In this document: in pieces, positions 25,856 to 60,130 of the stretch
Layout: every line of letters begins with the position of its first letter
Position numbering within the stretch: the first letter of the stretch is position 1
DNA from: Cyanidioschyzon merolae
Taxonomy: Eukaryota
Direction: 5' to 3' (one strand)
DNA length: 64,000 nt
NCBI GenBank assembly: GCA_000091205.1
Contig: AP006501.2
Made by a program: the position numbers and the translations under genes
Notes under the pieces: generated by a model
What the model was told of the DNA's origin: nothing
Databases searched by the model: none
Seen by the model: only the letters and a program-made list of their open reading frames with translations

Positions 25856-26773
25856 GGCAGTAGACTTCGATGGCGGACTGGTTTTTGTATGCATATGTGA
25901 TACGGTATATGTAAAACTGGGTATCGAACTTGCAGCGCTGATAAACGTGGCAGTAGACTTCGATGGCGGACTGGTTTGTATGCATATGTGATACGGTATA
26001 TGTAAAACTGGGTATCGAACTTGCAGCGCTGATAAACGTGGCAGTAGACTTCGATGGCGGACTGGTTTGTATGCATATGTGATACGGTGTGTGTAAAACT
26101 GGGTATCGAACTTGGAGCGCTGATAAACGTGGCAGTAGACTTCGATGGCGGACTGGTTTGTATGCATATGTGATACGGTGTATGTGAAACTGGGTATCGA
26201 ACTTGGAGCGCTGATAAACGTGGCAGTAGACTTCGATGGCGGACTGGTTTGTATGCATATGTGATACGGTGTATGTGAAACTGGGTATCGAACTTGGAGC
26301 GCTGATAAACGTGGCAGTAGACTTCGATGGCGGACTGGTTTGTATGCATATGTGATACGGTGTATGTGAAACTGGGTATCGAACTTGGAGCGCTGATAAA
26401 CGTGGCAGTAGACTTCGATGGCGGACTGGTTTGTATGCATATGTGATACGGTGTGTGTAAAACTGGGTATCGAACTTGGAGCGCTGATAAACGTGGCAGT
26501 AGACTTCGATGGCGGACTGGTTTGTATGCATATGTGATACGGTGTGTGTAAAACTGGGTATCGAACTTGCAGCGCTGATAAACGTGGCAGTAGACTTCGA
26601 TGGCGGACTGGTTTGTATGCATATGTGATACGGTGTATGTAAAACTGGGTATCGAACTTGCAGCGCTGATAAACGTGGCAGTAGACTTCGATGGCGGACT
26701 GGTTTGTATGCATATGTGATACGGTGTATGTGAAACTGGGTATCGAACTTGGAGCGCTGGTAAACGTAGAGAG
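25856..26773. repeat. Minisatellite of about 10 tandem 91-92-bp units
   Basis: The unit ggcagtagacttcgatggcggactggtttgtatgcatatgtgatacggtgtatgtgaaactgggtatcgaacttggagcgctgataaacgtg repeats with a period of 91-92 bp. The only variants are gtatatgt/gtgtgtgt/gtgtatgtg and cttgcagcg/cttggagcg. It begins 70 bp after the Bms1 stop. Confidence 0.9.
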
Positions 26774-27379: not shown

Positions 27380-27609
27380 CATCCTAATGGCAAAAATACA
27401 GATATTCGACGGCATCTGATGAATCAATCGAACAAGCACGACCTAGGATGTCTACCCTGCACACCGATCACCGTCACTGAGCGATAGATGCTTACATCCT
27501 AATGGCAAAAATACAGATATTCGACGGCATCTGATGAATCAATCGAACAAGCACGACCTAGGATGTCTACCCTGCACACTGATCACCGTCACGGAGCGAT
27601 AGACGCTAT
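27380..27609. repeat. 2 x 115-bp tandem duplication upstream of msrA
   Basis: catcctaatggcaaaaatacagatattcgacggcatctgatgaatcaatcgaacaagcacgacctaggatgtctaccctgcacac.gatcaccgtcac.gagcgataga.gct.a is present twice, with 3-4 differences. Confidence 0.8.
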
Positions 27610-32523: not shown

Positions 32524-34364
32524 CGTAGAAGAAAACCGGTTGACTCTAAGACGTGCGCAGATGCTCAGATACGTTGCTCAGCACACAAAGCGCATATACA
32601 CAACATTTGCCATGCACTTGGATACGCTTCACACTGCCGCACGCATGCATGCACGCAATGTCAAGTCCGCTGAGAGGCGCTTCGCGCGTGCAGAGCCGTT
32701 CGGAGGCGCACTCCAGATTTGGCGCGAAACGCGTGCAGTTTCGATTCCCTGAGACACGACAGCACCAAGGCGTGCGTCGGGATCGCAGCACCCGCGGAGG
32801 CAGATCGGAGCAAATGAGCCGGCGGTACCTGCCTGCAGGTCCGATGCAGACCATGTTTGTGTGTGTGCGCGCGCGTTTTTTTGCTGACTCACACAAGGCG
32901 ATAGGATACATGCCCCGCACATTTTGGCGAGCTTCGTGGACATGAAGCAGCATGTCAGGGCAGTATCCCTGACCAGGTGTCGAACGAACGCCGCTCTCTA
33001 TCGCGCGGATGACGTCTCGTCGTAGAACGCGATCAGGTACTACTCCTGCGGCGGAGAATTTTTTTTTACAGAAGCAGCGCCTTGCAATCCCAAGATCGCT
33101 TATAAAGCGCGTGATCTTTGAGCGTCCAGCAGAAGCATACAGAGAGTTGGATGTTCAGCAGGAACGCGCTTCGCGTGCGTGGACGCAGCCTCTACGAGCC
33201 TCTTGTTTGCGAGACCACTAACCTCAGGTTCATACATCGGAAAAGGTGTATCGGCATTGAGACAAGAATGGAAGCAAACGACCCAAAACTTTCGATTTGA
33301 TAGTTCCAGGTGCCACCATCCAGGTACACTGTGCTGGATTCGGACTTGCGATGTGTTTCCACAAACGATATGTGTCGCCTACTTTTCCAGAAGCTTTGGC
33401 AGTTACATCACGCAGCGCGGATTCAGCGTTTCTGTATCGCCTTCGCTATGCACAGCTGCATTCAGAGACCCAATGGGGGCAATCCATAATATTTTCAGTG
33501 ATATCGAATAATGCGACACCATTATCGTACACCATTTGCCGGGGAAAACAGATCATGTGTACTTAGAAGGCGCTCTTGCTTTTCTGGATTGCTGAACGGC
33601 GTCAAACCAGTTCCTGTCTCCAGGGGAAGATCTAGTGCCCTCTATCCTGGTCACTGACCATTTTCCAAGGTAAGCCTGCAGCGTTTGAGCACAATAGCCG
33701 CTCCGATTACAGAACGATTGCCTCGAATGTTCGCCCGACACGAAGCCGCTGGAAGCTCCCGAATCACAACGCATATCCGAATGTAGATCGAGGCGTTCAC
33801 GTCTTGGTAAAGATATTGTTTGCGCGCAATGCTGCTGGTGGAATCTCACACCATTGCGAACCGTTCACCCGCAATTACTCGTCATCTGAAGTTCGACCAG
33901 CTTGCATAAATGCCATCTCGTGTGTGCATCTCTTTTTCGCGCTCTTCCTCTATACCTGTTTCAGCGTGCGCTCGTGGTCATGATCCACGTATGTTGCCGT
34001 CAACGCATCCATGGGAATCGTACAGCATCGACTCCGGTACACGTTCAATGCTCTGGGCGAGGGTCAAGGATGTAGCGCCTGCGCCCAACACTCCATCCAG
34101 CGCCGTGGGCTGTCCCCAGACGACGCACCTCATCGGACCATGGCTTTTCCCACTCACGGAACAAATTCGCGAAAGCACCCTTCTTGCGTACGCAGAAACG
34201 AAACTCGTGGCGACCGCAGCGCGCACCTAAGCACTCCTAAAAAAATGATCCTCACTTGCGTTTCAATGCTCATGGACTCTCTGAATAAAATGTACAATGC
34301 AGCCCGCTTTGCTTGATGCGTGGTGCTCAGAGCGTCGAGACGAGTGCTGACGCCATCACTGCAC

Positions 34365-35904
34365 TTATCGGTATGCCTCCTGGCATCCGTCACACCGACT
34401 CCGGGTCGTAATGCTCCCTCGAAAAAACAGGTCGCATGGCATCTGCTGCTTCGAGCATCCATTATGTTGTGGCATGAAGCTTAGATCGAAATATTCCAGA
34501 TGAATATGGACAGCTAGCAGCCCTGCTTTCGGAATACCTACGATCTGTCGCTTGACGAGGAACGTCGAGGCGAGACAAGTTACGCTAGCCTTCATCGAGG
34601 GAGACGCTACAAAGCCCTTCATAACGTCCCGCATCTCGAAGTTCGCAAGATGCTCTCCGTCGATTTGTGTTCGTGCTGAGTTCACGAAAACGGTTTGAGA
34701 CGGATTCTTTCGCTCCGGCAGTTTTCCCGTTCTCGTCATCATCGTCCATTTTTGAGAAGTATCGTTCTGCTCTTGGTCTCGTACATCAATCGCCTTCTCC
34801 TTTACATCACTGAGTGGCATGAACCGGTTGCCATCCTCCAAAATCGTTTTCGATCGAGACTCAAAGGAATTGAGTGTAAGTTGGAACCGAATCTCACCTT
34901 TCCTATCAAAGCATCTGGGATTCCGCAAGCGCCGTATCAACTCATTCATGTTCGCGAGCAGACCCACGGAATGCAGCTCGCGTGTAGGTCCCGAACCCAC
35001 GCATCTGCGCACGAGCGGAGGAGTATCAGAGCAGTTCAGGGCTATTGAAAGTAGAAAACGAATTTTCCAAGGAACATTAGCTGAAGAACGGTGTCGCGGG
35101 TGCGAAAAACTCGTCTATGGAACCACGAGCATAAGAAAGGTACTTGCGAACAGCGAAAATGCTTGCGGCTGAATTGAAACCCGGGAAAAACGCTCGCACG
35201 AACAGCAGCTCAACACCGATCTCAGCTGCGTACTCCATGGTCGTGTTTGCGTGATGGAGGGCGAGTTTGCCAAGGTACAAGCTAAAAGGGTGTGGGAAGC
35301 AGAAGACCTCAATACTGCTTCGACGGAGAGTGATTTCTTGAACAACACCTGTCTGTTTGGAGATGTACGGGCGACTACATGATAGAATCGTCGCCTCGGC
35401 TAATGTTGTAAGGGTGCTCGCTTTTCCCTTCTTTGCAAACAGCGCTTTGCCGGTTACTGAACACCTGTACAAAGATCTACAATTTCTTCCGAGTGCAGCC
35501 GCATCGAGTGAGACGACCACGAATCCGTCCGGTGATAAGCGTTCGTGCTTCACGGTGGAATCGATTAAGTTTTGTTCCATACGCCATGGTCTCGCTCGGA
35601 AGCGTACCTTTGCCCTTGCCCATCGGCATACCTTCGTACCCACTCGTACCAACGGTACGAAATCTTTAGAAACTGTGGCATCTCCAATCGTTTCTCTTAG
35701 TGAACACATGGCGTGACCTTGATTGACAATGACACCTTCATGCAGAGCGTCTTTGACAAGCAATGTTTGGGGTGCACGACGTCCACTGTCTGAACTCCGC
35801 GATTGCATCGTGCATCTACCGCTTGACCGCAGGATAACTGAAATGTATCCATGAGTGTGTTTCCCGCATGCTTGCAGTCCCGGAATAAAGTCTTTCGCAG
35901 ACAT
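34365..35904 (-). CDS. Hypothetical gene, or possibly two genes (ORFs 35077..35904 and 34365..35012 in different frames). Function unknown.
   Basis: Two adjacent minus-strand ORFs (275 aa and 215 aa) have ordinary, non-repetitive composition. They lie in a lower-GC region. No domain was recognised. A frameshift or small intron could join them. Confidence 0.25.
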
Positions 35905-37012
35905 TTCTCCAGTCTACAGGAGCAACCCCCATTGTTCGATATTTGCGCGATAAGCAACCAAAATCAAAAAGGGCGTGCTGATACAGCTGTTCTAGAATGG
36001 ACTGCTCTGGGCGCAACGAACTTGGTGCAGCTGCAGGGCCGACGTCCTAACATAGCCACAGCCAAATTCATGCCGCTTACAGCCCGAGGCCAAGCACGTA
36101 TCCAGAGCCAAGAGTGCACCCATGCAGGTTCCAGCAGACTAGACACGCTAGAGTCATCAGCGCCCTATCCGGGGGGTTTAGTCTAAAAGCGATACGAGCA
36201 CGACATGGCGCCGCAGCGCTGGAGCCCGAGTTCAGTTCTCCACATAACCGTTCCAAAACAAAGTTTCACACCTCGCGCTCCGCGATCAAGGAGCCCCTAA
36301 ACCAGCGAAGTATGTTCCATGATACCGCGGCCTATATGCAGTTCACCATTTGCCTGCGGCACCGGGCCGGAAACACACTCTTAGCTTGTCCATGCAAGCC
36401 AGCAGACGACCATGTTGTGAGAACGTTCCGGGGCCAAGACCAATGCGAGTGCGACTAGTCCCATTCCCCCGGATACGCTTCGAGTGTCGACGCGCCTCGG
36501 TTACCTAGCCTCTGGATCGTGCACCTATCCACGTTTGCAGCTTTCAATGCTTTCGTCAGTATGCTGTAACCAGTCCGGTCTAGGCGCCTTTTTCATGACA
36601 GACTTGTCGGGAAGAAGTGAACTGTCGAAGTCCCATATACAAACTGTGAAACAGACGTTCAAGCGCAGAGAAGTTACGTGCACCCTGCAAACATCAAAAC
36701 TGACCCAGAAACGATGAAGTGTTTCTCTCTCTACACATTGAAAGATTCTATCGGCGTCATTTGGCCTCAACTTTTTCGCGAACACTCGAGCCTGCTATTC
36801 CATTCACGCGAGATCTCATATCATTAACCGACACGTTGCAGCGCCTAAAGTTGTGCCAGCACGCCTCACCTGCCTCAATACTGACCACGCTCGCAATATA
36901 CCTATAGGAACAGGCTGCAGTCATACCCAATACGTCGCGCCTTGGCGCTAGTTTGTTTCCGCGCACGCTTTTCATGGTATAGAATCAGTGCAATGAACCA
37001 GTATCTACGACG

Positions 37013-40000
37013 ATGGACACAGGTTGCCGGTACTCGGGGCGTAACGCTTTCCACCTCAGCAGAAAGGTGGGCCTGCAGCGCCCCCATAACGCGCGCTCGC
37101 TCCATCGGACGCTCCTCGAGTTGGTACGCTCCGTTGCGCATCAGGGACGGCGAGACGTGCCCTGCGAGTCCGAGGCACCCGTCACCGCTATGCGTTCAAG
37201 ATGCAAACTCTCTGAGTCCCCTTGCACTTCAGTGAACCCCCCAAAAAAGCTCAAGGTACCGCAGAAGAGAACTCCGTTCTGCCGTATGGGCACCTGCGCT
37301 CCGAGAGCGCTCAGCCGAAACCCTCCGGTGCACGTCGCACGACGGCTGCTGCAACGCCGGACATCCATCGCACGGCCGCACACAAGCCGTTCGTACTGGA
37401 GCCGTCAAGGAAGCCTTTTGGCGATAATCTGCTCTCTGAGTTTCTGCAAGTGCCTTTATCCTATGGACGCTTTCATTTGCGTGAAGATACACAGTACAGC
37501 TTTGGTGAGGTCACCGGCTTGGAACCTTTCCCGTTTCGATGGCAGACACAGCTGCGTATCCGGTTGGCGACGCAGCCGCGGACGCCGTACTGCGGAAACG
37601 CTTCGACTGTTGCAGGATGAGGACGCGGTGCCTGAACCGCGGACACAGAAGCAGTCGCCCTTCTCGGGGATAGCGACTAGTGAGTCGGTGCAAAATGTAT
37701 CCAAGTATGCGGAGGTTCTGCTCCAAAAGAATAAGGCACTCCAAAAGTGGTCGGAGAAGAGTCTGGAGCGAGAAAACCCCGGGGCAGGGACGACGCTGCT
37801 CGAGGACGTGGCTCACGACGCCACCAACGAGGAAACCTCAGCGCTCAGTGCAGAAGAATCAAAATTTGCCCCCAGGGGGAAACGGGGCCGCCGTCCTCAT
37901 CGGGAACAGAGGCCCGCTGGTTACTGGAACGCCGACAACGTCGTTCGTGAGGTTCTCGAGTTCGTGCGCTCGCGCCCAAACTCCGGAAACGGACCCCAAT
38001 ACATGCCCACTTCGAACGAGCTGCGAGAGGCAAAACGCTCTGATCTCGTTCGAGCCATCATTGTTCACGGGGGCTACGCGAAGGTAGCAGAGCGCTGTGG
38101 CCTCCAGCCGCATCGACGATCGTTTGGGTACTGGCGCAAGGACTTTAAGAACCTCGAACGAGAGATTTGGAGTTTTATAAGAGAACGTGACGGCCCCGAA
38201 GCAGTTCCTCGTGAATTTAGAGGCGATTCCTCAACAAGGTCACGTAGGAAGAGCACCGCCGATGCCAGCGCTTCACAGGCGACCCCAAATGAACCAACGA
38301 CTCGGCCGCGTATGCCTACCTACAATGAGCTCGTAGCAGCAAAGAAGCGGATTCTTGCTTACGCGATTGCGGAAAACGGTGGCTTTCTCGAGGTAGCCAG
38401 AAGAATGAACCTGCAGCTCAGCAGCGATGAGACCCCCTGGCGCGATCGCGATGCACTCGTTGCGGAGCTGCTGCGTCTTTTCCCGGACTTGATGGGAAAA
38501 CAGAAACGCTTTCCGCGGCAACAGGATCTCGTTCGACTTGGTCGTTATGACCTCGACTGGGCCATTCATCGTTGGCATGGCGGTTACACACGACTAGCTG
38601 CCGAGCTTGGATACCTGCGATCTCGGCTACCGTGCAAGCCGCGAAACTTTTGGTCTGATGAACGGAATTTAGAGAATGAGTTGCGAGCGCTGCTGCAAGC
38701 GAACAATATGGGTTGGCGGATGCCGAATCGAAAGGAGCTCGAGGCTCTCGACAGGCACGACCTGATCTACGCCATTCGCAAGTTCGGCGGTTTCCTCACG
38801 GTCGCAACGAAACTGGGGCTATCGCGGGATGCGCTTACTCATACGCGGCCTCGAGGGTACTGGTCGGATTTCGAAAATCTGCGCACTGAATTGCAAGCTT
38901 TTGTTCAAGAAAATGGCTATCCCGGCATTATGCCGCGCCTCGAGCAGCTTCGTATGTACAACCGGGAGGACCTGATCAATGCAATCCATCGCCACGGCGG
39001 AGCAGCGAATGTGGCACGCCGCTTGCATCTCTTCTGGTACGGCCCGAAGACTTTCTGGCGCAAGTTCGAAAACCTCGGACAGCGACTGAGGGCATTTTTG
39101 CACAAGTCGCGCTTTTCCCATGACAAGATGCCTACACAGCAGGAACTCATAAGCGCTGGACGTGTGGATGTGGCGTACGGTGTCCATCTGCACGGCGGTG
39201 TGTATGAGGTGGCACGGCGCCTTCGACTGCAGGTTCTCGATCCTCCGCGAGCGCCGTTCTACTGGAACGATATCCAGAACGTGGAGACGGAACTCATTGC
39301 TTTTGTTAACAGTGCAGTTCACGCCGCATGGATACAGAACGGTGTCATGCCCACGAGCATGACCATCGTTCGAAGTGGGCGGCGTGATCTCGCTGCCGCT
39401 ATCCGACGTCATGGTGGATGGGATGCGTTTGCTCGCCGTTTGAACCTGCGCCCAGCCGCACCCAAGCGCCCGAAAGGCTACTGGAATACCCTGCGCAACG
39501 TGGAAGCAGAGTTGCTGCTCTACGTACAACAACGCGAACAAGTGATTGCAGAGTTCGTGCGAAACTACGCTGCGGACTTTGTACGTCGCCCAGGAGACGA
39601 CGAAGACGACCCTGACGCAGCAGGAAAAATAGCATATTCCGATGTTTCTGAAATCCTCGCTGGGAACGTCGGCAACAAGCGCTGTCGCACTGTCGTGGGT
39701 GCGATACGCAACGGTGCGTACGTACCAGTGATGCCCACCGCTGAGGAACTTCGCCTCGACGGACGTGCAGACCTTGTTTTCGCCTGTGAACGCATTCATG
39801 GCGGGCTTGCTACTGTTGCCCGCGGTCTCGGGTGGCCACTACTCGCGGAGCGACTACCCCCTGAGTCGTTGAAGAAGGATCGCAACGTTCTCGTTCAGGC
39901 GCTGATGACCATGTGGATACCGATTTACGGGACTGCAGGTGAGATGCCCACTGAGGCAGATCTGTTACGAACCGGTGGAATCGACATCCATGAGGCTATT

Positions 40001-40189
40001 GTTTGCCATGGCGGCTACGTAGAGGTTGCACGCTCCTTGAATTTACGCCATCCGGAGGATCCAGAATGGACCGATTGGTCTGCGAAACGCTTCTCAAAGC
40101 AGCGCATGTCGCGGCCTTTGCAACCGCGATCGAAGAAGGGCTCCAAAGCATCTCCAGAAACGAGCGGTGATTCTGCTGATGAGGTCTGA
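37013..40189 (+). CDS. Large protein made of about 10 tandem ~68-aa modules of an unrecognised repeat family, with a low-complexity Arg/Ser-rich N-terminal 300 aa
   Basis: From aa 303 (nt about 37919) to about aa 1030 (nt about 40100) the sequence is built from repeated modules. Examples are PAGYWNADNVVREVLEFVRSRPNSGNGPQYMPTSNELREAKRSDLVRAIIVHGGYAKVAERCGL, RPRGYWSDFENLRTELQAFVQENGYPGIMPRLEQLRMYNREDLINAIHRHGGAANVARRLHL and RPKGYWNTLRNVEAELLLYVQQ. The consensus is [GF]YW.D..N.E.EL..F......G.MPT..EL...GR.DL..AI..HGG...VA..LGL. The true start is uncertain. Confidence 0.6.
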   Translation: MDTGCRYSGRNAFHLSRKVGLQRPHNARSLHRTLLELVRSVAHQGRRDVPCESEAPVTAMRSRCKLSESPCTSVNPPKKLKVPQKRTPFCRMGTCAPRALSRNPPVHVARRLLQRRTSIARPHTSRSYWSRQGSLLAIICSLSFCKCLYPMDAFICVKIHSTALVRSPAWNLSRFDGRHSCVSGWRRSRGRRTAETLRLLQDEDAVPEPRTQKQSPFSGIATSESVQNVSKYAEVLLQKNKALQKWSEKSLERENPGAGTTLLEDVAHDATNEETSALSAEESKFAPRGKRGRRPHREQRPAGYWNADNVVREVLEFVRSRPNSGNGPQYMPTSNELREAKRSDLVRAIIVHGGYAKVAERCGLQPHRRSFGYWRKDFKNLEREIWSFIRERDGPEAVPREFRGDSSTRSRRKSTADASASQATPNEPTTRPRMPTYNELVAAKKRILAYAIAENGGFLEVARRMNLQLSSDETPWRDRDALVAELLRLFPDLMGKQKRFPRQQDLVRLGRYDLDWAIHRWHGGYTRLAAELGYLRSRLPCKPRNFWSDERNLENELRALLQANNMGWRMPNRKELEALDRHDLIYAIRKFGGFLTVATKLGLSRDALTHTRPRGYWSDFENLRTELQAFVQENGYPGIMPRLEQLRMYNREDLINAIHRHGGAANVARRLHLFWYGPKTFWRKFENLGQRLRAFLHKSRFSHDKMPTQQELISAGRVDVAYGVHLHGGVYEVARRLRLQVLDPPRAPFYWNDIQNVETELIAFVNSAVHAAWIQNGVMPTSMTIVRSGRRDLAAAIRRHGGWDAFARRLNLRPAAPKRPKGYWNTLRNVEAELLLYVQQREQVIAEFVRNYAADFVRRPGDDEDDPDAAGKIAYSDVSEILAGNVGNKRCRTVVGAIRNGAYVPVMPTAEELRLDGRADLVFACERIHGGLATVARGLGWPLLAERLPPESLKKDRNVLVQALMTMWIPIYGTAGEMPTEADLLRTGGIDIHEAIVCHGGYVEVARSLNLRHPEDPEWTDWSAKRFSKQRMSRPLQPRSKKGSKASPETSGDSADEV

Positions 40190-40547: not shown

Positions 40548-41876
40548 TCAGATAAACATGGAACATTGACCCATCCGCTATGTTCCTTTTCATATGATTT
40601 TTTCTGAGCGATCTTAGATGCACCATTGGCATTCGAGGTGCAGCAGTAGGTGCGTACGGATTCATACGTGGTTTCGGGGCTCCAGCTTGTCTATTCAGTG
40701 TGCCGCTATCGACTAGTTGGTGCTGGAATTTTTTAGTGCGCTGGAATCAAAACATTACGTGTTGCTATCGAATACGGGATCGCAACAGAATACATGTCAC
40801 TGACCAAATCGTATGTACAAGCGTCCGCTCTCCTCCTTTGCTACCGTTTCGTATGCTTCAGTCACACAATCTTCGTGTTTTCCATCTTTCCGTATCACAG
40901 AGGCTCGTGAGTGCGGCTACTCGTACCGCCAGATTGACGCGGATAATACCTCGACAACGCCCCGTAGCGGCCGCTTTGTAAGCGCATCCCCAACAGTCAC
41001 TGAACCTGTCACGTCAAATGATCCTGATCGATTGAACGGCAAATCCGTCTGCCTTCGTGGGCATCGACGGAACTGCATTCACGCTCAGCTTGATCCATCT
41101 CACCGGGCTATGCTGGCAGGGTCTCCCGTCTCTCCTGCTAGAATGTGAGAGCATCGTCGACTAGGGCTTGGGTTAGCGCAGCGATCGCTTCCGGGGCGGC
41201 GAGCGCCTCACCGCTTCTGACCGAGTCAGCGTCGACGCATCGAGAATGCTCGACATCGTGCACCGACCTGGACTTTGCTGCAGATACCTCTATTATCCTG
41301 GATACGATCGCGTTCCGCATACGCTCTATCGAACGGAGCAGCGTGCGCTTTCGAGTGCAGCGGACAGCGTACTTGCCAAGCGTCCGCTCAGGAGTGGAAA
41401 CAGCGGCGGGTTCCATGTCGAACCTCGTTTACTGCGAATAGCACGAACACGGGCAAAGCGTGTAGGCATCACGCGCGATAGGGCGACGCTCGGATGACGA
41501 GGGTGTTTGGCGAACACACGGGAACGACTACCGTTATCCAAGCGTCGCTGCTGCAGCGCACGAATCTATTCTGTATACGAGCAAGATGAGCGCGACGAGG
41601 GAAGCGAAGCTCGTAACGTCCGCCTGGACGTGACCTGCATTGAGCACAGCCAAAAGCAACGAGACCGACACATGAGCGCTGCACTCCATGTCCTTCGACG
41701 AAGGAGAACGCTGCTGGCGTGAGAGGAAACGGAGGCGTATGGAAACACGGAGAGAAGCGAAAGGACCGAGAGGCAGTCGCACCAGAAACCGTAAGGGCTG
41801 GTCTTGACGACGCCCGAGAACACACTTAAACTTTAGCTCGCATACCCGCATAAGAGGTGCATTTTCATACTACGCT
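40548..41876 (+). repeat. 1.33-kb dispersed repeat, copy A. It is the direct-repeat partner of 60131-61452.
   Basis: tcagataaacatggaacattgacccatccgctatgttcc ... cttaaactttagctcgcatacccgcataagaggtgcattttcatactacgct is shared with copy B, with only a handful of substitutions. Flanks diverge immediately outside. No convincing protein domain was found in any frame. Confidence 0.85.
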
Positions 41877-45449: not shown

Positions 45450-48005
45450 GCGCACCCCTGGAAACAAACGTCTTTCAAAAGAAAAACGTTGCTGCCAGTG
45501 GTACAGTAGTGGCGGCAACCGCACCCTAGCCAAGAAGTCTCCAACTGATGTGCAGACGCCTTCCAGCTTTTTTCGACTGGCCACCCACTACTGCTTCCAA
45601 CTTTTTCCCATATAATTCCACATTCAGAGATGGTTCCATAAAGTTTTCTCTTGTCAGCTCTGGGGGTCTATTCTCCATCAACGCATATTTCCTTATATTG
45701 CTGGCAGCATTAAAGTCTCGGTTCATAAACTCCATACGTTTCGTGCCGTTGGGAGTTGTACTCACTAATGCAAGTAGTCCACGAACTTTCGCGCTCCTTT
45801 CCATTTGCTCTTCCGTCAGCGTACCGTACTTTCTTATAACCTCAGGACTCCGCTGGCACTTTTCCATCTCGACCCTCTGAAGTGTACACCCTAGCTCATG
45901 GTGTGTATAGGACGTTCGAAACTCATCTACAGGTATCGTGACGATACTCCGTGCACACTCTTTGTACGTTCTTGTCGTTGGAGCTGGCGTAGTTCCTTGC
46001 TTGGGTCTTCCGTCACCCTGCTCCGTACGCTACTACGAGTCTCTGACTTTCATCCTCCTTCAAGGCGCTCAGCAGATTGAAAAAGTTCGCGAATGCACGC
46101 TGCTTCCCACAATACAAATTCATTCGCAGTCGAACCCACCGGGGCTTGGTCTACTCTTTCCACAGCGCATACCAGTGAGCAATACGAAGTTCCATGAATT
46201 TCCGAAGAGCCTGAATGTCCGCTCGTCGGCTCGTCACCTCGCTCATAGCTTCCAGATGCTCTTTCATTCTTTCATTCCATGCAGCAATTTTCTTCCTCGC
46301 ATTCATTATACCGGATTCTCGATAGTATCTCGCTCTCGAGAACCTCAAAAGACGCATGTATTTCTGACGTAAGTTACCATCAGTACCATCTTCCGCACGC
46401 TGGGGTACTGCGATGGTTATGTTATTTGTGTTTCCGGGATCCGCGCTGACGACAAAGTCGTTATCTTGCACCTCCTGCGTCGCAGGATCCGCCTCCTTCT
46501 CATCTTCATGCATCGTCGCGCCTGCATCCTTCGTCTCGGGCGCAGCCGAGGGAGGGACTGGACGATCTGTCTTCAACCGCCGATAGTGTATACACAAGGC
46601 TACTCCATCGGTTTCGATCATCTCAGTGAATACCTTTTGTTTGCTGACTTTGAGACGTTTGAAATCGAAGATATTCTTCCAGTATGTCTGCCGGTTTTCA
46701 CCGGAGAATTCCTTCCTGCTAACATCGAAATCAGGACTGATCTCGCTCGTGATGCTGCAAAGACGCCAGAGTCGATAGTCACAAAATGTGACTTGATATT
46801 GTACATTGGAACCACGTTGAAGCGCTTCCCCATTAGGAACGCCTTCCGTCTCTCCCACTCTTCATTTTTTCCTCATTCAGCCTCATCTCTGCCGTGCGTT
46901 CGAGTTCGCGGTCCAAAAACACGAAATACCTCAAGATGAGGAGGTAGTATCTTTCCTTATCTTTTCCAACTCTGATATCTTGTCTGCTGGATTAACCAGC
47001 CCCAGTACCGCACGGTGCTCTTGTATAACCGCACGGATTACAGAAGCTTCATTCGTGCACTAATTCGACGCCTTCTTGTCAACGAACTCGATCTCATCTT
47101 CATGATGGCGATCGTTCGTGATGCAATTGATAATCGCCCATTTTCCTTCGCGAGACAGACCCGGGTGGAGTGCAACCACGGCGCGTATCATGAAACGTTC
47201 GAAGTTCGCTGTCAAATGGTTCTTCAGATTCGTGAGGTACTTCATGGCCCCGTAGCTGTAAATATCCCAGTCACCCTTGTACCGAGTACCCTCGAAGCTG
47301 TAGAAGGAATGTTTTTCGTGGAGGGCATGCACTAGCACATTTTCCCTCCGCGCTTTCTCTGTACCAAGCATCAGGTGAGGAATAAAGGTCTTGTCGAAGA
47401 ACTCGCCCGGAATCTCGACCTTTTCCATGTGCGTCCCGTCGCGATACATCTCTCTCACCAAATGCATCAGTCCTGACGACGCCTTGACAATATTCTTCGA
47501 GTACGACGCAACACGTTTTTCGATAGCTTCTCGCAACTTTTCCCTGTACGGATCCTTGATCTGTCCAAGAAGAAAGGTTTTCACCACCATCTCGTCGCAC
47601 AGTTGTCTTTCTTGCCGCTTTCGACGTAGGGCCTCCCCCGTTTTTGCGTTTTCTTCTTATCCTGCTCTTCTGGAATCGGCACTGTTTTTTGTTTTTTTTC
47701 TGGCACCCGGCGACACTGGGCCTCCAGGATCGTAGACTTGCTTTTTCATAGCTTTCCTTTTTTAGTTTTTTTTGAGAAAGAACGCTCTTTGAACTCTTCT
47801 GTTATATACTGCGAAAAAAACACTTGATTAGACTTGTTCGAAGTTTGAAACACAATTGAAATGAAAAACTGTACTTGGCTATGAAGTTAACGAAAATACA
47901 ACTTTTACATTAGATCTACATGCTAGAGATCAGGATCACGTTCCCCTTCAACAACGGCATGTGCGTAGCGTCTCATGCCTGCCTGATCTCCGAGGTGCAC
48001 TCACC
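45450..48005 (-). mobile_element. TnpB-like (Fanzor-type) element copy 2. It forms the left arm of a 2.5-kb inverted repeat.
   Basis: It is the reverse complement of 52281-54800 at near identity. Coding remnants are 47060..47590 (the N-terminal piece, ending KKASN then TAG), 46151..46858 (the middle piece with [15 protein letters not shown]) and 45526..45867 (C-terminal MEFMNRDFNAASNIRKYAL...). A Lys/Arg-rich putative NLS segment lies further 5'. Confidence 0.75.
45526..47590 (-). pseudogene. Fanzor/TnpB-like nuclease remnant (copy 2). It has in-frame stops and lacks one 20-aa internal repeat present in copies 1 and 3.
   Basis: The middle piece reads ...[51 protein letters not shown]..., which has a single [11 protein letters not shown] unit compared with two in copy 3. 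Confidence 0.65.
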
Positions 48006-48559
48006 GAGCGCGATGCAAACTAGTCACAAATTATTTATTAAAGAACAACTATCTTAAAAGCCCCATACAGCACGCGCGCCTATGGGGTCTAGTTTTTCCG
48101 AAGAAGCTCTGAAAGTGGGTTAAACCGGGGTGCTTGGGCGACGACGAAGGAAGCCCACGCCAGGGACCATGACCGCAACGAACGGAGGGGCGGAGGCAGT
48201 GGCAGCAGAAAATATTGACGAGAGTTCTGAGTAGTTATCCGCTGCTCCCGAAACAACGCTGCAGGTTCCGGCGCAAATCCTGGATCCATCCTCGAACTCG
48301 GGCTACGTTTTACCTCCCACCTTGAGCACCTACCTCAACTTTGGAAACACTCTCGGCGGATACTTCGGAAGGCGGCTATCGATATGCTCGTGGTCGAAGC
48401 TGGAATAAGCGACTTACCCGCCTATGTGTTTGGGGAACGGATACGTAACCGCTGAACGGGTGCTTTGCAGACTGTTCCCAATGGTTGAGGGTAGCTTCAC
48501 GCGTCCGGCAAGATAAAGTTCGCATTCGAATCGACCTTGACTAATGTACTTCTGATTCT

Positions 48560-51500
48560 ACGCTAGCGCTGCGGCAGACACTCAATGAACGACTGGAATG
48601 CAGGAGGCGCTGGTGGCATGTGCTCTCACACACCTTGTGGAGGGTGCATCTAAATGGACGACGCATCTCTCGAGTACCGCAGCGTTACTCCTATACCCTT
48701 ATGCGCTACGACTCGATAGGTTTCGCATCATGGAATATTTGCGGTGTGGCCTCGATACTAGACGACGAGATATCGAATTACCAGTACAGTAATGAAGAAC
48801 TGATACAAGTCGAGGACTGTACAATAGGAAAAGAGACCCAACCAGACACGGAGAAGGAGACACAGAAACCTCATGATCCACCTAGATGCAAAATAACCAG
48901 AGAAAGTAGCTCAGGAAAGAGCCCGAAGAAGAAAAAGACCAGCAAGAAATAAACAGAAGAATAGAAAAAAGAACTCCCAAATGAGCCCATCACAAGGTAT
49001 CCCCCGAGAGGGCACCCCAGCTGGAACTCAAGAAAGCCGTCGCCAAACCCAGGCACCTACTCACAGCGCTGAAGATCCGAAAAGCCGTGCATACAAATTT
49101 TTTGACCAATTGACACGCGAGTTTGTAGATGGGAATCAGAAGATTGCCAGAGAGCTGGGACTGCTTGCACCAGAACGCAACAGTTGCAAACCTCGGTACC
49201 TGAAACGACGTACCAAAACTCGGATTGATGAATGCTACCGAGTCTATAAGATCGTCAACCGCACCGCCATACACGCCAACGCCGGAGACAAAGAAGCGAA
49301 GGCAGCGCTACCGGCGCTACAGGCGCAACATGAAGAAGCTATCAAAAGAAAGAAGAAACTTTCCAGAGAAGACAAACGAGAGGATCGAAACCGCAGAATC
49401 GCCTCCCTGGCGAAATCTATGCTGGAGAGCACCAACGAAGATGAGATCTGGCGCTACATTCGATCGAGACTCGACCCACCAAAAAAGTGCTTGGGGCTCA
49501 CACCAACTCTGTATAAGGAAGAGCTGAGGACGGAGCGTGCCTCAGTGAATGAGGCCTGGACAGACCACTGGACAGAGCTGCATGAAGAAGCAACTGGACA
49601 CTGCTAAGACCCAATCTATTGGCACCAATATGCTGCAGAACTACCGCGCCTCGACCCGGTACCGGAATGGAACGACCCAATCTTCTGGCCTGAATCTGTC
49701 CGGACTCTGCTATGCTCAAGCAACCGCAAAACACCTGGCTTTGACGGTATCCCTACGGAGTGGATGAAACTGGTGATCCCAAAAGACGGGACAACAGGGA
49801 CACCATCGATACCAGATGAACCTGACAGAATCTTAGGCAAGCGCCTTCTGGAGCTCATCCAACGCATGTTCGAAGAAGCGTACATCCCAGATGTATGGAG
49901 GACTGCCGAGGTCGTATCGATCCTCAAAAAGGACTCCGAACCCCACAGACATGAATATCTACCGGACTATGCGCCTCATCCCGTCAATCATGAAGCTACT
50001 TTGCGCCAACCTCACGAACCGGACTCAGAGGGGCCTTGAGGAACGCAACTTCCTCGCCCCAGAGCAGGCTGGATTCCGGAGCCGCGAGGAGTGCATGAGC
50101 CATGACCTGACCTTCATTGAAGTGGTGCAACGTCGCTCCATTAGCTGCCAACAACCAACTTACGTATGCTTCATCGACTTTCAAAAGGCCTTTGACACGG
50201 TCCCGCACGAGGCTCCATTTCTGAAGATGGAACGTGCCAGAGTCTCCGGAAAGTGCTTAGCGTTCTTCCGTGCGCTCTATGCAGACTCGTGGATGTGCAC
50301 CCGACTGGGCGACTGCTCAAGAACCCCTTCGATAAGAATCCGCCGTGGACTGCGACAGGGCGACCGCGCATCCCCGCGCCTTTTCAACATCTTCATCAAC
50401 GATCTGCTGAACAACTGCAGACAATACGGGCTTCAGGTGTCGTGGATAGACTGTGGAGAACCCGGTGAGGAGCGCCTACATAGAAACCGCCTCGCAGGCC
50501 TTCTACTTGCGGACGATGTCGTGCTGTTGGCACCCGCCCCGGAAACGCTTGCGGCTAGCATGCAACAAGTCAGCGCCTGGGCCGATCGCTGGGTTATGAA
50601 CATAGGAGCATCGAAGTGCGGCGCCATGGTCATCCTTGGAGACTCGCAGCGCATTCGCAATCGCTCGTGGCGGTTGCAGAATCAGGAAATTCCGATCGTG
50701 GAAAAATATCGCTACCTGGGGGTCTGTCTCACGCCGACGCTCGACGAAAAGGCACAAGTCGACGAGATGATCGCCAAGATGCATAGACGTACAGAGATCG
50801 CACGTCCATTCTTATCCGACCCCTCTATCTGCATAGCAATCCGTACGAGGGCACTAAGGATGTGTATCATCCAGCCTTCGACCTGGGGTGCTGAATGGTG
50901 CGGCATGAAGCACACAAATGCCTCGCGTCTGCATACAGCCGCCAACAGGGCAATGCGACTCGTTGGTGTTGGATGCTCAGTGCAGCGCAGAGCGACCAAC
51001 CCGCTGGCACTCGGACTTGAACTCCAAATAGCCTCGATAGAAGCGATAGCAGCAGGCTGCCGGGCATGTATACGGGCCAAAGGGCCCACTATGCGCACCT
51101 CCTTGAGTCGGATTTTCATGCAGACCCCAACGCACCGCTAGAACACTTGGATGAAATCAGCGCAGATTTGGCTGAAGCGCCTCTTACGCGAAAACACGCT
51201 ACCCAATCGTTCCCCAGGAATGTAGAAGACTTCAGACGCCTCAAGCGAACGGTCCAAACAACAATATGGGAAGGTAGACACGGTACCAGTCGCGCTAGTA
51301 ACGCCGGCTTGACTCTATATCGGAACTACAACCTAGCATACACATGCAAGTACTGGTGGGAGGCGCTGGAATTCCCGGGACTTGCTCGCGGTACCCTGTG
51401 GCTTGCCAAAATCCGTGTTAGTGGCATCTGGCTACCAGCACCGGCTCTAAGCCGTACGGGAACACTGGAACCGCACTGGGAGTCACACTGTCCCTGCTAT

Positions 51501-52276
51501 CGAGACGAAATCCCCGAGACGCTGACATATTTAAGCTTACAGTGCCCGCGCTCGAAGCAGGAGCGCAGCGAGCTCCTTGAAGGACAGCAGGAGCTCGGCA
51601 TCACCGTGATAGTCGAAGGCCGGACACTCACTCTGAGTGTAGCACTGGCAACTGATGGTCCGCTAACGGAGCCTCAGCGCTCATGAGTGGCGAAGAAACT
51701 CACATGCTACCTTCTAGGCAGCAGGTCCAACGAATCGGATGAGCACACGGGTTTAGTGCTCTTTGTGCCTACCCACTGTGGTGGGTGTCAAGCACAAACC
51801 CGCATTGCCAACCGACAACACATTCAATGCATGATCACGAAGGAAAGAGGCGGCTCGCACGATATATCCTAACAGCCAAGTTTCTCCAGCGTGTCGTGCA
51901 GCGAAGACAAGCCTGCATCCGCAGACTGTCCGAGCACAAACTGACGACGAGACCCGATTCTACTTCGGTTGAACCACGCCTCGAGCCGACGCGCTCTGGG
52001 GTATAGAAAAGCTGCTCTAGCTCGATGAACTATCTGCTCCAGCATTTAAGGTCCAAAGGCGGATACGGAAAGGCAGGTACTAGGCACACACGATAGGACG
52101 TATGAAACGACCAGAGTATCCGAGGTGAAGTATAGGTACTGTAGCTTGGAGGCAGGCTGTTTGATGGATACCTAACCGCGCACTGAAAAAAATAACATAA
52201 AAAAGTAAGAAAAGAAAAAGCGCACAATTGGAAAATGCTGGCACAAGTAAACGTCTTGTCCATGAAAAAAAGAATC
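48560..52276 (+). mobile_element. Degenerate non-LTR (LINE) retrotransposon with APE-like, RT and CCHC remnants and a 3' A-rich end
   Basis: 48620..48952 carries IGFASWNICGVAS, an AP-endonuclease-like start. 49764..50039 and 49891..51141 carry RT blocks (VWRTAEVVSILKK..., YRTMRLIPSIMKLL, CFIDFQKAFDTVPHE, GLRQGDRASPRLFNIFIND, LLADDVVLLA). 51066..51686 has a CCHC-like knuckle (CPCYRDEIPETLTYLSLQCP). Frameshifts separate the pieces. The 3' end (...catgaaaaaaag) abuts arm B at 52281. The 5' boundary is approximate. Confidence 0.75.
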
Positions 52277-52280
52277 GCGC

Positions 52281-54800
52281 TCGGTGAGTGCACCTCGGAG
52301 ATCAGGCAGGCATGAGACAAGACGCGCGTGCCGTTTTTGAAGGGAAACGCGATCCTGATCAGTAGCGTGTTGTTCTGCTGTAAAAGTCGGATTCCCGTTC
52401 AGATCATAGCAAAGTATAGTTTTCATTTCAATTGTGTTTCAAACTTCGAACAAGTCTAATCAAGTGTTTTTTTCGCAGTATATAACAGAAGAGTTCAAAG
52501 AGCGTTCTTTCTCAAAAAAACTAAAAAAGGAAAGCTATGAAAAAGCAAGTCTACGATCCTGGAGGCCCAGTGTCGCCGACTGCCAGAAAAAAAACAAAAA
52601 ACAGTGCCGATTCCAGAAGAGCAGGATAAGAAGAAAACGCAAAAACGGGGGAGGCCCTACGTCGAAAGCGGCAAGAAAGACAACTGTGCGACGAGATGGT
52701 GGTGAAAACCTTTCTTCTTGGACAGATCAAGGATCCGTACAGGGAAAAGTTGCGAGAAGCTATCGAAAAACGTGTTGCGTCGTACTCGAAGAATATTGTC
52801 AAGGCGTCGTCAGGACTGATGCATTTGGTGAGAGAGATGTATCGCGACGGGACGCACATGGAAAAGGTCGAGATTCCGGGCGAGTTCTTCGACAAGACCT
52901 TTATTCCTCACCTGATGCTTGGTACAGAGAAAGCGCGGAGGGAAAATGTGCTAGTGCATGCCCTCCACGAAAAACATTCCTTCTACAGCTTCGAGGGTAC
53001 TCGGTACAAGGGTGACTGGGATATTTACAGCTATGGGGCGATGAAGTACCTCGCGAACCTGAAGAACCATTTGACAGCGAACTTCGAACGTTTCATGATA
53101 CGCACCGTGGTTGCACTCTACCCGGGTCTGTCTCGCGAAGGAAAATGGGCGATTATCAATTGCATCACGAACGATCGCCATCATGAAGATGAGATCGAGT
53201 TCGTTGACAAGAAGGCGTCGAATTAGTGCACGAATGAAGCTTCTGTAATCCGTGCGGTTATACAAGAGCACCGTGCGGTACTGGGGCTGGTTAATCCAGC
53301 AGACAAGATATCAGAGTTGGAAAAGATAAGGAAAGATACTACCTCCTCATCTTGAGGTATTTCGTGTTTTTGGACCGCGAACTCGAACGCACGGCAGAGA
53401 TGAGGCTGAATGAGGAAAAAATGAAGAGTGGGAGAGACGGAAGGCGTTCCTAATGGGGAAGCGCTTCAACGTGGTTCCAATGTACAATATCAAGTCACAT
53501 TTTGTGACTATCGACTCTGGCGTCTTTGCAGCATCACGAGCGAGATCAGTCCTGATTTCGATGTTAGCAGGAAGGAATTCTCCGGTGAAAACCGGCAGAC
53601 ATACTGGAAGAATATCTTCGATTTCAAACGTCTCAAAGTCAGCAAACAAAAGGTATTCACTGAGATGATCGAAACCGATGGAGTAGCCTTGTGTATACAC
53701 TATCGGCGGTTGAAGACAGATCGTCCAGTCCCTCCCTCGGCTGCGCCCGAGACGAAGGATGCAGATGAGCAGAAGGCGGATCCTGAGACGCAGGAGGTGC
53801 AAGATAACGACCTTGTCGTTGGCGCGACGATGCATGAAGATGAGAAGGAGGCGGATCCTGCGACGCAGGAGGTGCAAGATAACGACTTTGTCGTCAGCGC
53901 GGATCCCGGAAACACAAATAACATAACCATCGCAGTACCCCAGCGTGCGGAAGATGGTACTGATGGTAACTTACGTCAGAAATACATGCGTCTTTTGAGG
54001 TTCTCGAGAGCGAGATACTATCGAGAATCCGGTATAATGAATGCGAGGAAGAAAATTGCTGCATGGAATGAAAGAATGAAAGAGCATCTGGAAGCTATGA
54101 GCGAGGTGACGAGCCGACGAGCGGACATTCAGGCTCTTCGGAAATTCATGGAACTTCGTATTGCTCACTGGTATGCGCTGTGGAAAGAGTAGACCAAGCC
54201 CCGGTGGGTTCGACTGCGAATGAATTTGTATTGTGGGAAGCAGCGTGCATTCGCGAACTTTTTCAATCTGCTGAGCGCCTTGAAGGAGGATGAAAGTCAG
54301 AGACTCGTAGTAGCGTACGGAGCAGGGTGACGGAAGACCCAAGCAAGGAACTACGCCAGCTCCAACGACAAGAACGTACAAAGAGTGTGCACGGAGTATC
54401 GTCACGATACCTGTAGATGAGTTTCGAACGTCCTATACACACCATGAGCTAGGGTGTACACTTCAGAGGGTCGAGATGGAAAAGTGCCAGCGGAGTCCTG
54501 AGGTTATAAGAAAGTACGGTACGCTGACGGAAGAGCAAATGGAAAGGAGCGCGAAAGTTCGTGGACTACTTGCATTAGTGAGTACAACTCCCAACGGCAC
54601 GAAACGTATGGAGTTTATGAACCGAGATTTTAATGCCCCTATCAATATAAGGAAATGAGCGGTGCTGGAGGAAAGACCCCCAGAGTAGACAATAGAAAAC
54701 CTTTTTGGACAACCTCTCAAAGTCGAACTATATGAGATAAAGTTGGAACCAGTATTAGGTGGCCGATCCAAAAAGGCTGGAAGGCGTCTGCACATCAGCT
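52281..54800 (+). mobile_element. TnpB-like (Fanzor-type) element copy 3. It forms the right arm of the inverted repeat.
   Basis: Coding remnants: 52434..52690 is a K/R-rich NLS-like stretch in another frame. 52696..53226 is the N-terminal piece. 53428..54192 is the middle piece (...[27 protein letters not shown]...RIAHWYALWKE). A continuation lies in the same frame after a TAG (TKPRWVRLRMNLYCGKQRAFANFFNLLSALKEDESQRLVVAYGAG). 54476..54658 reads MEKCQRSPEVIRKYGTLTEEQMERSAKVRGLLALVSTTPNGTKRMEFMNRDFNAPINIRK. A conserved 3' noncoding tail of about 140 bp follows. Confidence 0.75.
52560..54658 (+). pseudogene. Fanzor/TnpB-like RuvC nuclease remnant (copy 3)
   Basis: The domain order matches TnpB/Fanzor. 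There is an N-terminal region, a RuvC-I-like hydrophobic-D-P-G motif, then a F..F..L..K.E....VV block, then a Cys-containing region, then the RuvC-III-like NRDFNA.INI. In-frame stops occur after KKASN, after TTSSS (four stops within 25 codons), after ALWKE and after YGAG. Confidence 0.65.
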
Positions 54801-54953
54801 GGAGGCGTTTCGTCTAGGGCGCGTTCGCCGGCACGACTGTACACGGCCGCCGGCTGTGCGTCACGTGGAGCCGCGAGCGGCGGGCTTCTACCAAGTGCCG
54901 CTTGTACCAAACGCACTTGCACCTCGTGTGGACACAGACGCATACCTGAGTGC

Positions 54954-59599: not shown

Positions 59600-60130
59600 G
59601 TTTGCAGGCTAGCACCAGTGTGTCCCTGGGTCGCTCGAAACGAGAACCAACGCACCGTGCGTGTGTTCGTCGAACGAGCAGTCTCTGGTGGTAGCGACGA
59701 GTGAATGCGGAGTGTTCAAGAGAGTTCCTCACGATCAGCAGAGTGACTCGAGAGGCACGTACCAAAGAATAGAGTTAATCGGTTCCCTGGCCTGTCTACG
59801 AGGGGACGCAAAGGCGTCCTTGGGGTTGTTCTACGAAAACGACTCGTTCCACCTGCGCAGCGCACTTGAATGGACTCCACCAGTGGTGAAACTTTGACAC
59901 CTGTAAACCAACCTGGGTCCAACGGGCCTCTCTTCGCGCTATCACCGTACCCATCGAAAAGCAACGCTCAACAGTGGTGCGCAGTACATTGCAAGTGGCT
60001 GTCAGTCGAATGCTCTGGAGAGAAACATCTCCTCGTTCCGTCGGGATTGTGCGGTGCGGTGCGGTGCGGTGCGCGTGGAGCGGCGTCACGATAGCAGGAA
60101 GGAGGATTATGTTGACGTTTAGCTCAGATA

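What the first reader, a model, noticed from the sequence alone, without database searches (positions are those of the whole stretch)
37013..40189. Protein built from about 10 tandem ~68-aa modules of an unrecognised repeat family
Residues from about 303 to about 1030 are a near-continuous array of modules. Each has an aromatic G/F-Y-W motif (RPAGYWNAD, SFGYWRKD, PRNFWSDE, PRGYWSDF, PKTFWRKF, APFYWNDI, PKGYWNTL). Then comes a short helix-like N..[EN]..EL..F segment, a Gly/Pro turn, and then MPT..EL...GR.DL..AI..HGG...VA..LGL. I do not recognise this as PPR, OPR, HPR, mTERF, SAP, ankyrin, TPR, HEAT or any other catalogued repeat. The second half of each module (basic residue, then DL..AI, then HGG, then VA..LGL) resembles a helix-turn-helix. 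That points to a tandem array of nucleic-acid-binding modules, as seen in organellar RNA-binding helical-repeat proteins of algae. The N-terminal 300 aa are Arg/Ser-rich and could hold a targeting peptide or be misannotated 5' sequence.
Basis: partly seen in the sequence, partly recalled or inferred. Interest (0 to 1): 0.75.

Follow-up and report, generated by a model that had tools for sequence, protein, structure and literature searches.

The report
Red-algal protein with nine TMR repeats
The repeat array is real, but it belongs to a known family: this is a red-algal nuclear gene with nine copies of the ~68-residue "TMR" module that the plant chloroplast factor HCF145 uses to bind and stabilise the psaA messenger RNA.

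Summary
ORF 37013-40189(+) carries nine tandem ~66-73-aa modules, not ten; two are split by 32- and 62-aa inserts. Each module has the pattern GYW – helix – MPT..EL..GR.DL..AI..HGG..VA..LGL.

The claim of an unrecognised family does not hold. A profile built only from land-plant HCF145-type proteins (2 SRPBCC domains + 2 C-terminal repeats) hits the ORF at E = 4e-66, scaled to 1.8 billion sequences. A profile built only from the window's own modules hits those plant proteins at E = 1e-17 to 1e-29. The module is therefore the transcript-binding motif repeat (TMR) of HCF145. [quoted passage not shown]

The family is large, with 3,293 representative proteins. It grades into Pfam PF18780 (homing-endonuclease-associated repeat). 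In bacteria it is fused to SNF2 helicase/methyltransferase and Mrr/helicase enzymes.

The gene is syntenic and conserved in two other Cyanidiales. Its real start is probably Met151 (nt 37463), followed by a presequence-like, unconserved N-terminus.

The most likely function is sequence-specific binding of an organellar, probably plastid, RNA. DNA binding is the main rival. This is a new member of a known kind.

The parts
37013..37462 (+). In-frame upstream extension of the ORF (residues 1-150), probably not coding
   Evidence: No similarity upstream of the orthologous genes. In the 99.6%-identical contig L001 a stop lies 17 codons upstream of the Met151 equivalent, and the alignment to the window begins only at 37421. 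Gene callers start the near-identical protein P0001 at Met151, and the orthologues are 894-908 aa.
37463..40189 (+). Probable true coding sequence (908 aa, from Met151 to the stop) of a nine-module TMR protein
   Evidence: Syntenic orthologues P0002 and P0003 (Cyanidiococcus yangmingshanensis) are 63-65% identical.
37463..37654 (+). Presequence-like N-terminus (ORF residues 151-214): unconserved and net positive, with a Phe within the first six residues in all three orthologues
   Evidence: 7-10% identical columns, net charge +5. Conservation begins at SPFSGIATSESV. Organelle targeting is inferred, not shown.
37655..37762 (+). Short conserved N-terminal segment (SPFSGIATSESVQN.SKYAEVLL...) before the array, function unknown
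   Evidence: 63% identical columns among the three orthologues. No Pfam match.
37913..38119 (+). TMR module 1
   Evidence: A4 profile, i-E 1.4e-23.
38126..38428 (+). TMR module 2, split by a ~32-aa low-complexity insert (halves 38126-38212 and 38297-38428)
   Evidence: A4 profile positions 3-30 and 23-66. The insert is poorly conserved.
38438..38611 (+). TMR module 3 (degenerate first helix, no GYW)
   Evidence: i-E 5.3e-09; alignment.
38639..38830 (+). TMR module 4
   Evidence: i-E 2.1e-24. Hit by the plant-only TMR profile.
38849..39037 (+). TMR module 5. This is the module modelled alone: pLDDT 95.2, four helices
   Evidence: i-E 5.4e-28; structure; plant-only profile 44.4 bits.
39044..39247 (+). 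TMR module 6
   Evidence: i-E 1.2e-24.
39257..39466 (+). TMR module 7
   Evidence: i-E 7.2e-24.
39470..39832 (+). TMR module 8, split by a ~62-aa acidic insert (halves 39470-39538 and 39722-39832)
   Evidence: A4 profile positions 1-23 and 25-60.
39860..40060 (+). TMR module 9 (no GYW)
   Evidence: i-E 2.8e-16.

Best explanation
This is a nuclear gene of a Cyanidiales red alga. It encodes a ~908-aa protein made of a presequence-like N-terminus, a short conserved segment, and nine tandem TMR (transcript-binding motif repeat) modules.

Shown here:
- The modules are homologous to the two C-terminal TMRs of land-plant HCF145-type proteins.
- Each module is predicted with high confidence to be a compact four-helix unit.
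- The array is strongly basic (net +25) and its modules are under purifying selection.
- The gene is single-copy in the window and syntenic in two other Cyanidiales.

Inferred by analogy with HCF145, whose TMRs bind the psaA 5' UTR, protect the psaA-psaB-rps14 mRNA from degradation and also promote psaA translation:
- The protein is imported into an organelle, most likely the plastid.
- The concatenated modules lie along a specific stretch of an organellar transcript, shielding it from exonucleases and/or opening it for ribosomes.
- Module-specific residues set the target.

It is not an HCF145 orthologue, because it lacks the SRPBCC ligand-binding domains. It is a TMR-only array protein of the kind the literature already reports for red algae.
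For: Family membership:
- Those plant proteins have 2x Polyketide_cyc (SRPBCC) followed by the two modules. That is the HCF145 architecture given in review PMC5897788.
- The plant-only TMR profile hits the window ORF at E 4.3e-66. The window-only profile hits the plant proteins at E 6e-17 to 7e-29.
- The only hit among 72,556 plasmids is in Microcoleus/Allocoleopsis PCC 7113. From memory, that is the cyanobacterium named in the original 2015 abstract.

Structure: the single-module model has pLDDT 95.2 and pTM 0.81, with four helices.

Reality of the gene: synteny Ctf4 – gene – DUF202 – HDAC in three genomes, and conservation concentrated in the modules.

Function of the founder: HCF145 TMRs bind the psaA 5' UTR, and hcf145 mutants also show a translation defect (PMC12449265).

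Targeting: the first ~64 aa are unconserved and net positive.
Against: - No binding, localisation or expression data exist for this protein.
- No targeting predictor could be run.
- Bacterial relatives of the module are fused to DNA-acting enzymes: SNF2/ResIII helicase + methyltransferase, Mrr nuclease, REase domains, and resolvase-type HTHs next to a recombinase. The ancestral ligand may therefore be DNA, and the red-algal array could bind DNA.
- Inter-module geometry is not reliably predicted (4-module model pTM 0.41).
- HCF145 works with two modules. How a nine-module array reads its target is unknown.
Confidence: 0.6

Rival explanations
1. The array binds double-stranded DNA (plastid nucleoid, mitochondrial or nuclear) rather than RNA, and so keeps the function the module seems to have in bacteria.
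For: - Family members are fused to an SNF2/ResIII helicase plus Methyltransf_8, to Mrr_cat plus a helicase, and to MTES_1575/DUF559 nuclease domains.
- A Methyltransf_8 gene lies next to the array gene in a Chloroflexia MAG.
- The PCC 7113 protein combines the modules with four resolvase/terminase-type HTHs and sits beside a recombinase.
- 18 of 104 relatives match PF18780, the 'homing endonuclease associated repeat'.
- Local sequence matches to DNA-binding HTH families.
Against: The only experimentally studied member, HCF145, binds RNA sequence-specifically through these modules. No eukaryotic member is known to bind DNA. The DNA-binding role of the bacterial modules is itself inferred from domain context only.
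Confidence: 0.25
2. The array is a protein-protein scaffold or has another role that does not involve nucleic acids.
For: Small helical repeats often mediate protein contacts. HCF145 was reported to interact with GUN1 in yeast two-hybrid and BiFC assays (PMC8583188).
Against: The array has net charge +25. TMR domains have demonstrated RNA binding. Relatives are consistently fused to nucleic-acid enzymes.
Confidence: 0.08
3. This is a genuinely unrecognised, uncatalogued repeat family.
For: The window protein has no Pfam, NCBIfam or PDB sequence match above threshold, and the local Pfam copy has no TMR model.
Against: Reciprocal profile hits to HCF145 TMRs at E 4e-66 and 1e-17 to 1e-29. The TMR motif and its multi-copy red-algal proteins are described in the literature. 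Relatives pass the PF18780 threshold. A newer Pfam release already assigns PF26683 to bacterial array proteins.
Confidence: 0.02
4. Spurious ORF or pseudogene.
For: The first 150 codons of the listed ORF are probably not coding.
Against: The 908-aa reading frame is intact in four genomes or contigs, syntenic, and conserved specifically in the modules.
Confidence: 0.01

Closest known systems
TMR (transcript-binding motif repeat) domains of HCF145 (Arabidopsis AT5G08720; Manavski et al. 2015, Plant Cell 27:2600, as summarised in PMC5897788)
   Same: Homologous ~68-aa four-helix module with the same signature: GYW..N.E.E...F, MP...., GR.D...A....GG...V...L.L. The plant TMR2 reads RGYWDNLENLQEEI..FQ..WGMDP.YMPSRK.FERAGRYDIARALEKWGG.HEVSRLLSL. 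Modules are tandem. The family is reported in red algae with up to ten copies.
   Different: HCF145 has two TMRs preceded by two SRPBCC ligand-binding domains. This protein has nine TMRs, no SRPBCC domain, and two modules split by inserts. It is a paralogous architecture, not an orthologue. Its RNA target is unknown.
Pfam PF18780 HNH_repeat (homing endonuclease associated repeat)
   Same: Same module layout. Single modules of close relatives score high for both profiles: P0089 117-181 scores 72.9 bits on the TMR profile and overlaps that protein's best PF18780 stretch (145-177; the protein scores 36.2 bits on PF18780). The plant and red-algal 'HGG' turn corresponds to the 'YGSW/FGSW' of PF18780. 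18 of 104 relatives match it.
   Different: The window protein itself gives no PF18780 match even at E <= 10. PF18780 is defined on prokaryotic endonuclease-associated proteins, presumed to bind DNA, and has no solved structure (PMC8078820).
PPR, OPR, HAT and other organellar helical-repeat RNA-binding proteins
   Same: Nuclear-encoded tandem helical modules that bind specific organellar transcripts and protect them from exonucleases. The review itself draws this functional analogy.
   Different: No sequence relationship and no Pfam hit. The module is ~68 aa with four helices, rather than a 35-38-aa helical hairpin. No recognition code is known.
Bacterial TMR-array enzymes (array + SNF2 helicase + Methyltransf_8; Mrr nuclease + helicase + array) and the PCC 7113 HTH + 3-TMR protein
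   Same: The same module in tandem arrays of 3 to 17 copies.
   Different: These are prokaryotic and fused to or adjacent to DNA-acting enzymes. The red-algal protein has no enzymatic domain.

Membership tests
TMR repeat family (HCF145-type) | Sequence homology to the TMR1/TMR2 domains of HCF145 | tested here: met
TMR repeat family (HCF145-type) | ~70-aa predicted helical motif occurring in tandem | tested here: met
   Nine modules of 66-73 aa. The AlphaFold model of one module has pLDDT 95.2 and four helices.
TMR repeat family (HCF145-type) | Sequence-specific binding of a plastid transcript | not testable with these tools
   Needs EMSA, RIP or CLIP. Known only for HCF145.
TMR repeat family (HCF145-type) | Chloroplast localisation | tested here: inconclusive
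   The first ~64 aa are unconserved and net +5, and all three orthologues have a Phe in the first six residues. This is consistent with a rhodophyte transit peptide (own knowledge). No predictor or experiment was available.
HCF145 orthologue | Two N-terminal SRPBCC (Polyketide_cyc) domains followed by two TMRs | tested here: not met
   No Polyketide_cyc match in the window protein. Plant proteins show 2x PF03364 at E 1e-38 to 1e-41. It is therefore a family member at the repeat level only.
Pfam PF18780 HNH_repeat | Score at or above the Pfam gathering threshold (26 bits) | tested here: not met
   The window protein has no match at E <= 10. Relatives P0074 (29.9 bits), P0089 (36.2), P0136 (35.6) and P0157 (30.7) do pass, so the two families are contiguous.
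PPR / OPR / HPR / TPR / HEAT / ankyrin / mTERF / SAP | Match to the corresponding Pfam repeat models | tested here: not met
   None are listed even at E <= 10.
Canonical helix-turn-helix DNA-binding domains | Significant sequence or fold match to an HTH domain | tested here: inconclusive

The most novel reading that the evidence does not exclude
TMR/PF18780 modules may form one ancient superfamily of concatenable nucleic-acid-reading units. Bacteria would use them to aim helicase-methyltransferase and restriction-type enzymes at DNA, and the ancestor of plastid-bearing eukaryotes would have re-purposed them for RNA. Under this reading the nine-module red-algal array reads a long plastid RNA (or DNA) target module by module. 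Specificity would sit at the positions that differ between modules but are conserved between orthologues (profile columns 22, 23, 31, 36, 37, 44 and 52). That would be a PPR-like, potentially programmable code in a lineage that I recall (not checked here) as having very few PPR proteins.
Probability: 0.2. Interest if true: 0.7.

Novelty: new member of a known kind. Interest (0 to 1): 0.35.

Why it matters
The gene adds a well-delimited nine-module TMR protein from a third Cyanidiales lineage to a family whose only studied member is plant HCF145. TMR has no model in the Pfam copy used here, no solved structure, and no known recognition rule. Long natural arrays with conserved orthologues are therefore the best material for working out how the module reads nucleic acid.

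The survey run here also shows two things about the family. It is large (3,293 representative proteins). It is continuous with PF18780 and with bacterial helicase, methyltransferase and nuclease fusions, which bears on where a chloroplast RNA-stabilising domain came from. I did not find this link stated in the papers I could read, but I could not read the 2015 paper that defined the motif.

Tried and rejected
- Pfam, NCBIfam and PDB sequence searches of the whole protein gave only sub-threshold HTH noise. The PDB search with the module profile found nothing significant.
- The AlphaFold-database library was unavailable.
- The word-indexed search with the 66-aa module profile returned only short fragments.
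- The 2015 paper that defined the motif (PMC4815088) is not held, and a phrase search for the motif name found nothing. PF26683, which a newer Pfam release assigns to the bacterial arrays P0004 and P0173, could not be identified.
- Plant HCF145 sequences were reached with a synthetic 690-aa bait. It joined two plant-like modules written from memory to real modules. The bait served only to fetch real sequences. All homology statistics come from profiles that exclude the bait.
- An overlapping-window alignment meant to deepen the MSA (A2) was discarded because MAFFT staggered the rows.
- Rejected readings: a DNA-level recent tandem duplication; other TMR genes in the window (none); the ORF's first 150 codons as coding sequence.
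Full report
**What is there.** The window holds an uninterrupted ORF at 37013-40189(+), 1058 aa. An HMM built only from the modules of an unrelated 1312-aa metagenomic protein (P0004) gives 11 significant segments in the ORF, with i-E down to 3e-23. These assemble into nine modules of 66-73 aa. Modules 2 and 8 are each split between the first helix and the MPT half, by inserts of about 32 and 62 aa. Tandem Repeats Finder sees no DNA periodicity, so the array is ancient and is maintained at the protein level. No other reading frame in the window carries the module.

**Gene model and context.**
- The closest database protein, P0001 (three amino-acid differences), starts at Met151 of the ORF and is 908 aa long. 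The orthologues P0002 (65% identity) and P0003 (63%, Cyanidiococcus yangmingshanensis) are 896 and 894 aa.
- The first 150 codons have no counterpart upstream of the orthologous genes. In contig L001, which is 99.6% identical, a stop lies 17 codons upstream of the Met151 equivalent. The probable CDS is therefore 37463-40189.
- The gene order Bms1/Tsr1-like – PMSR – Ctf4/Mcl1(-) – this gene – DUF202 – histone deacetylase(-) – MIF4G/W2 is shared with both orthologous loci. This is a nuclear gene of a Cyanidiales red alga.
- Among the three orthologues, the first ~60 residues are almost unconserved (7-10% identical columns) and net positive. Conservation starts at SPFSGIATSESV. Module blocks show 57-83% identical columns and the inserts 20-37%. 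The array carries net charge +25.

**Why it looked unrecognised.** Pfam, NCBIfam and PDB sequence searches give nothing above threshold. There are only weak local matches of the AI..HGG..VA..LGL stretch to HTH families such as YdaS/Cro, HTH_50 and LysR HTH_1.

**What it is.**
- A review of chloroplast RNA stabilisers describes the TMR (transcript-binding motif repeat) domains of HCF145. They are about 70 aa, predicted helical, and responsible for binding the psaA 5' UTR. [quoted passage not shown]
- To test this directly I needed plant sequences. The original paper is not held, and word-indexed searches with the short module profile returned only fragments. I therefore used a synthetic bait made of two plant-like modules written from memory plus real modules from three proteins. 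It was used purely to fetch sequences.
- The bait returned about 100 land-plant proteins of 700-750 aa. Their precomputed domains are PF03364/PF10604, and their source names include 'polyketide cyclase/dehydrase/lipid transporter'.
- Pfam confirms two Polyketide_cyc (SRPBCC) domains in the rice, spinach and Perilla members. [quoted passage not shown]
- The decisive tests exclude the bait:
  - Profile A4 holds only window, Cyanidiales and bacterial or metagenomic modules. It finds exactly two full-length modules at the C-terminus of 17 of the 18 plant proteins tested, and three in the Rhynchospora protein P0211. Scores are mostly 48-58 bits each, and whole-protein E is 1e-22 to 1e-41 when scaled to 1.84e9 sequences.
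  - A profile of plant TMRs alone hits the window ORF at E 4.3e-66.
  - A profile of the window's own modules alone hits the plant proteins at E 6e-17 to 7e-29.
- The modules are TMRs. The protein is not an HCF145 orthologue, because it has no SRPBCC domain.

**The wider family.**
- An exhaustive profile search of 1.84 billion representative proteins finds 3,293 with E <= 1e-3 and 541 with E <= 1e-30. Arrays range from 3 to 17 modules.
- Extra domains in members include:
  - SNF2/ResIII helicase plus Methyltransf_8;
  - Mrr nuclease plus helicase;
  - MTES_1575/DUF559 nuclease domains;
  - the N-terminal domain of Mg-chelatase subunit H, in Galdieria;
  - a RimM PRC barrel, in the green alga Micractinium and in the unassigned protein P0005.
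- A 71%-identical relative of P0004 lies in a Chloroflexia MAG, next to a Methyltransf_8 gene.
- The only match among 72,556 plasmids is on plasmid pMIC7113.04 of Allocoleopsis (Microcoleus) PCC 7113. That 498-aa protein has four resolvase/terminase-type HTHs plus three modules and sits beside a recombinase gene. From memory, PCC 7113 is the cyanobacterium named in the 2015 abstract.
- 18 of 104 relatives match Pfam PF18780, the 'homing endonuclease associated repeat' (best E 1.2e-20), and several exceed its threshold. The PF18780 matches fall inside modules that also score about 70 bits on the TMR profile, and the 'HGG' turn is replaced there by 'YGSW'. TMR and PF18780 therefore form one continuum. 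PF18780 has no known structure.

**How it most likely works.**
- Shown: membership of the repeat family, the module fold prediction, basic charge, purifying selection, and the nuclear syntenic locus.
- Established for HCF145, which I take (from the architecture match above) to be the Arabidopsis member of the plant proteins retrieved here: its TMRs bind the psaA 5' UTR and stabilise psaA-psaB-rps14, and the mutant's translation defect exceeds its RNA defect more than four-fold (PMC12449265).
- Inferred: the red-algal protein is imported into the plastid, and its nine modules bind a defined stretch of a plastid transcript to protect or activate it.
- An exploratory comparison flags profile columns 22, 23, 31, 36, 37, 44 and 52 as variable between modules yet conserved between orthologues. 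These are candidate specificity positions, drawn from only 9 modules x 3 species.
- The main rival is DNA binding, because the bacterial relatives are attached to DNA enzymes.

**Verdict.** The nucleic-acid-binding array interpretation is supported, and the 'unrecognised family' claim is refuted. This is a new member of a known but little-studied repeat family. Interest is moderate to low for the gene itself. The continuity between TMR, PF18780 and the bacterial enzyme fusions is somewhat more interesting.

Noticed in passing
window 45453-54854: About 9.4 kb lies between the HDAC and MIF4G genes, against about 1.1-1.6 kb in the two related genomes. It is bounded by ~2.5-kb inverted repeats (45453-48014 and 52274-54854, 95-96% identical) and contains a reverse-transcriptase ORF (49891-51141, RVT_1 E 2.7e-22). 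This looks like a retroelement with inverted terminal repeats (DIRS-like?). GC content is lower and strand skews are strong here.
   Followed up: partly
window 6182-8357: A third copy of the same ~2.1-kb repeat, 93-94% identical to 45453-47572 and to 52714-54854 in reverse orientation. It may be a solo terminal repeat or another element copy.
   Followed up: no
window 40548-41876 and 60124-61452: A 1,329-bp direct duplication at 99.2% identity. It starts about 360 bp downstream of the TMR gene's stop codon. At least the first ~930 bp of the first copy is also present in the near-identical contig L001. Its content was not identified.
   Followed up: no
window 25856-26767: A tandem array of about ten 91-bp units at 96-98% identity, just after the 1212-aa Bms1/Tsr1-like ORF. 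A 113-115-bp tandem pair lies at 27380-27607.
   Followed up: no
window 32524-37462: The intergenic gap between Ctf4 and the TMR gene is about 4.9 kb here, against about 2.4 kb and 1.3 kb in the two related genomes. ORFs in the gap (35077-35904(-) and 34365-35012(-)) have no Pfam match. Similarity to contig L001 breaks off at window 37421.
   Followed up: partly
P0146 / P0123 (Galdieria partita GJQ11684.1 and a relative): These Galdieria-type proteins join an N-terminal domain of Mg-chelatase subunit H (DUF3479) to five TMR modules. This may be a parallel to HCF145's ligand-binding domain plus TMR design, linked to chlorophyll synthesis.
   Followed up: partly
P0196 (Micractinium tetrahymenae), P0193, P0194, P0204, P0005: A family, including a green-algal member, that combines a RimM-type PRC barrel (plus a WW domain in P0196) with TMR modules. 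This suggests a link to ribosome or rRNA maturation.
   Followed up: no
L002 6001-12007 (Chloroflexia MAG CAVSHN010000012.1): A 1003-aa TMR-array gene is followed by a Methyltransf_8 gene. This mirrors the single-chain bacterial fusions of array + SNF2 helicase + methyltransferase, so it appears to be a conserved bacterial system of unknown function.
   Followed up: partly
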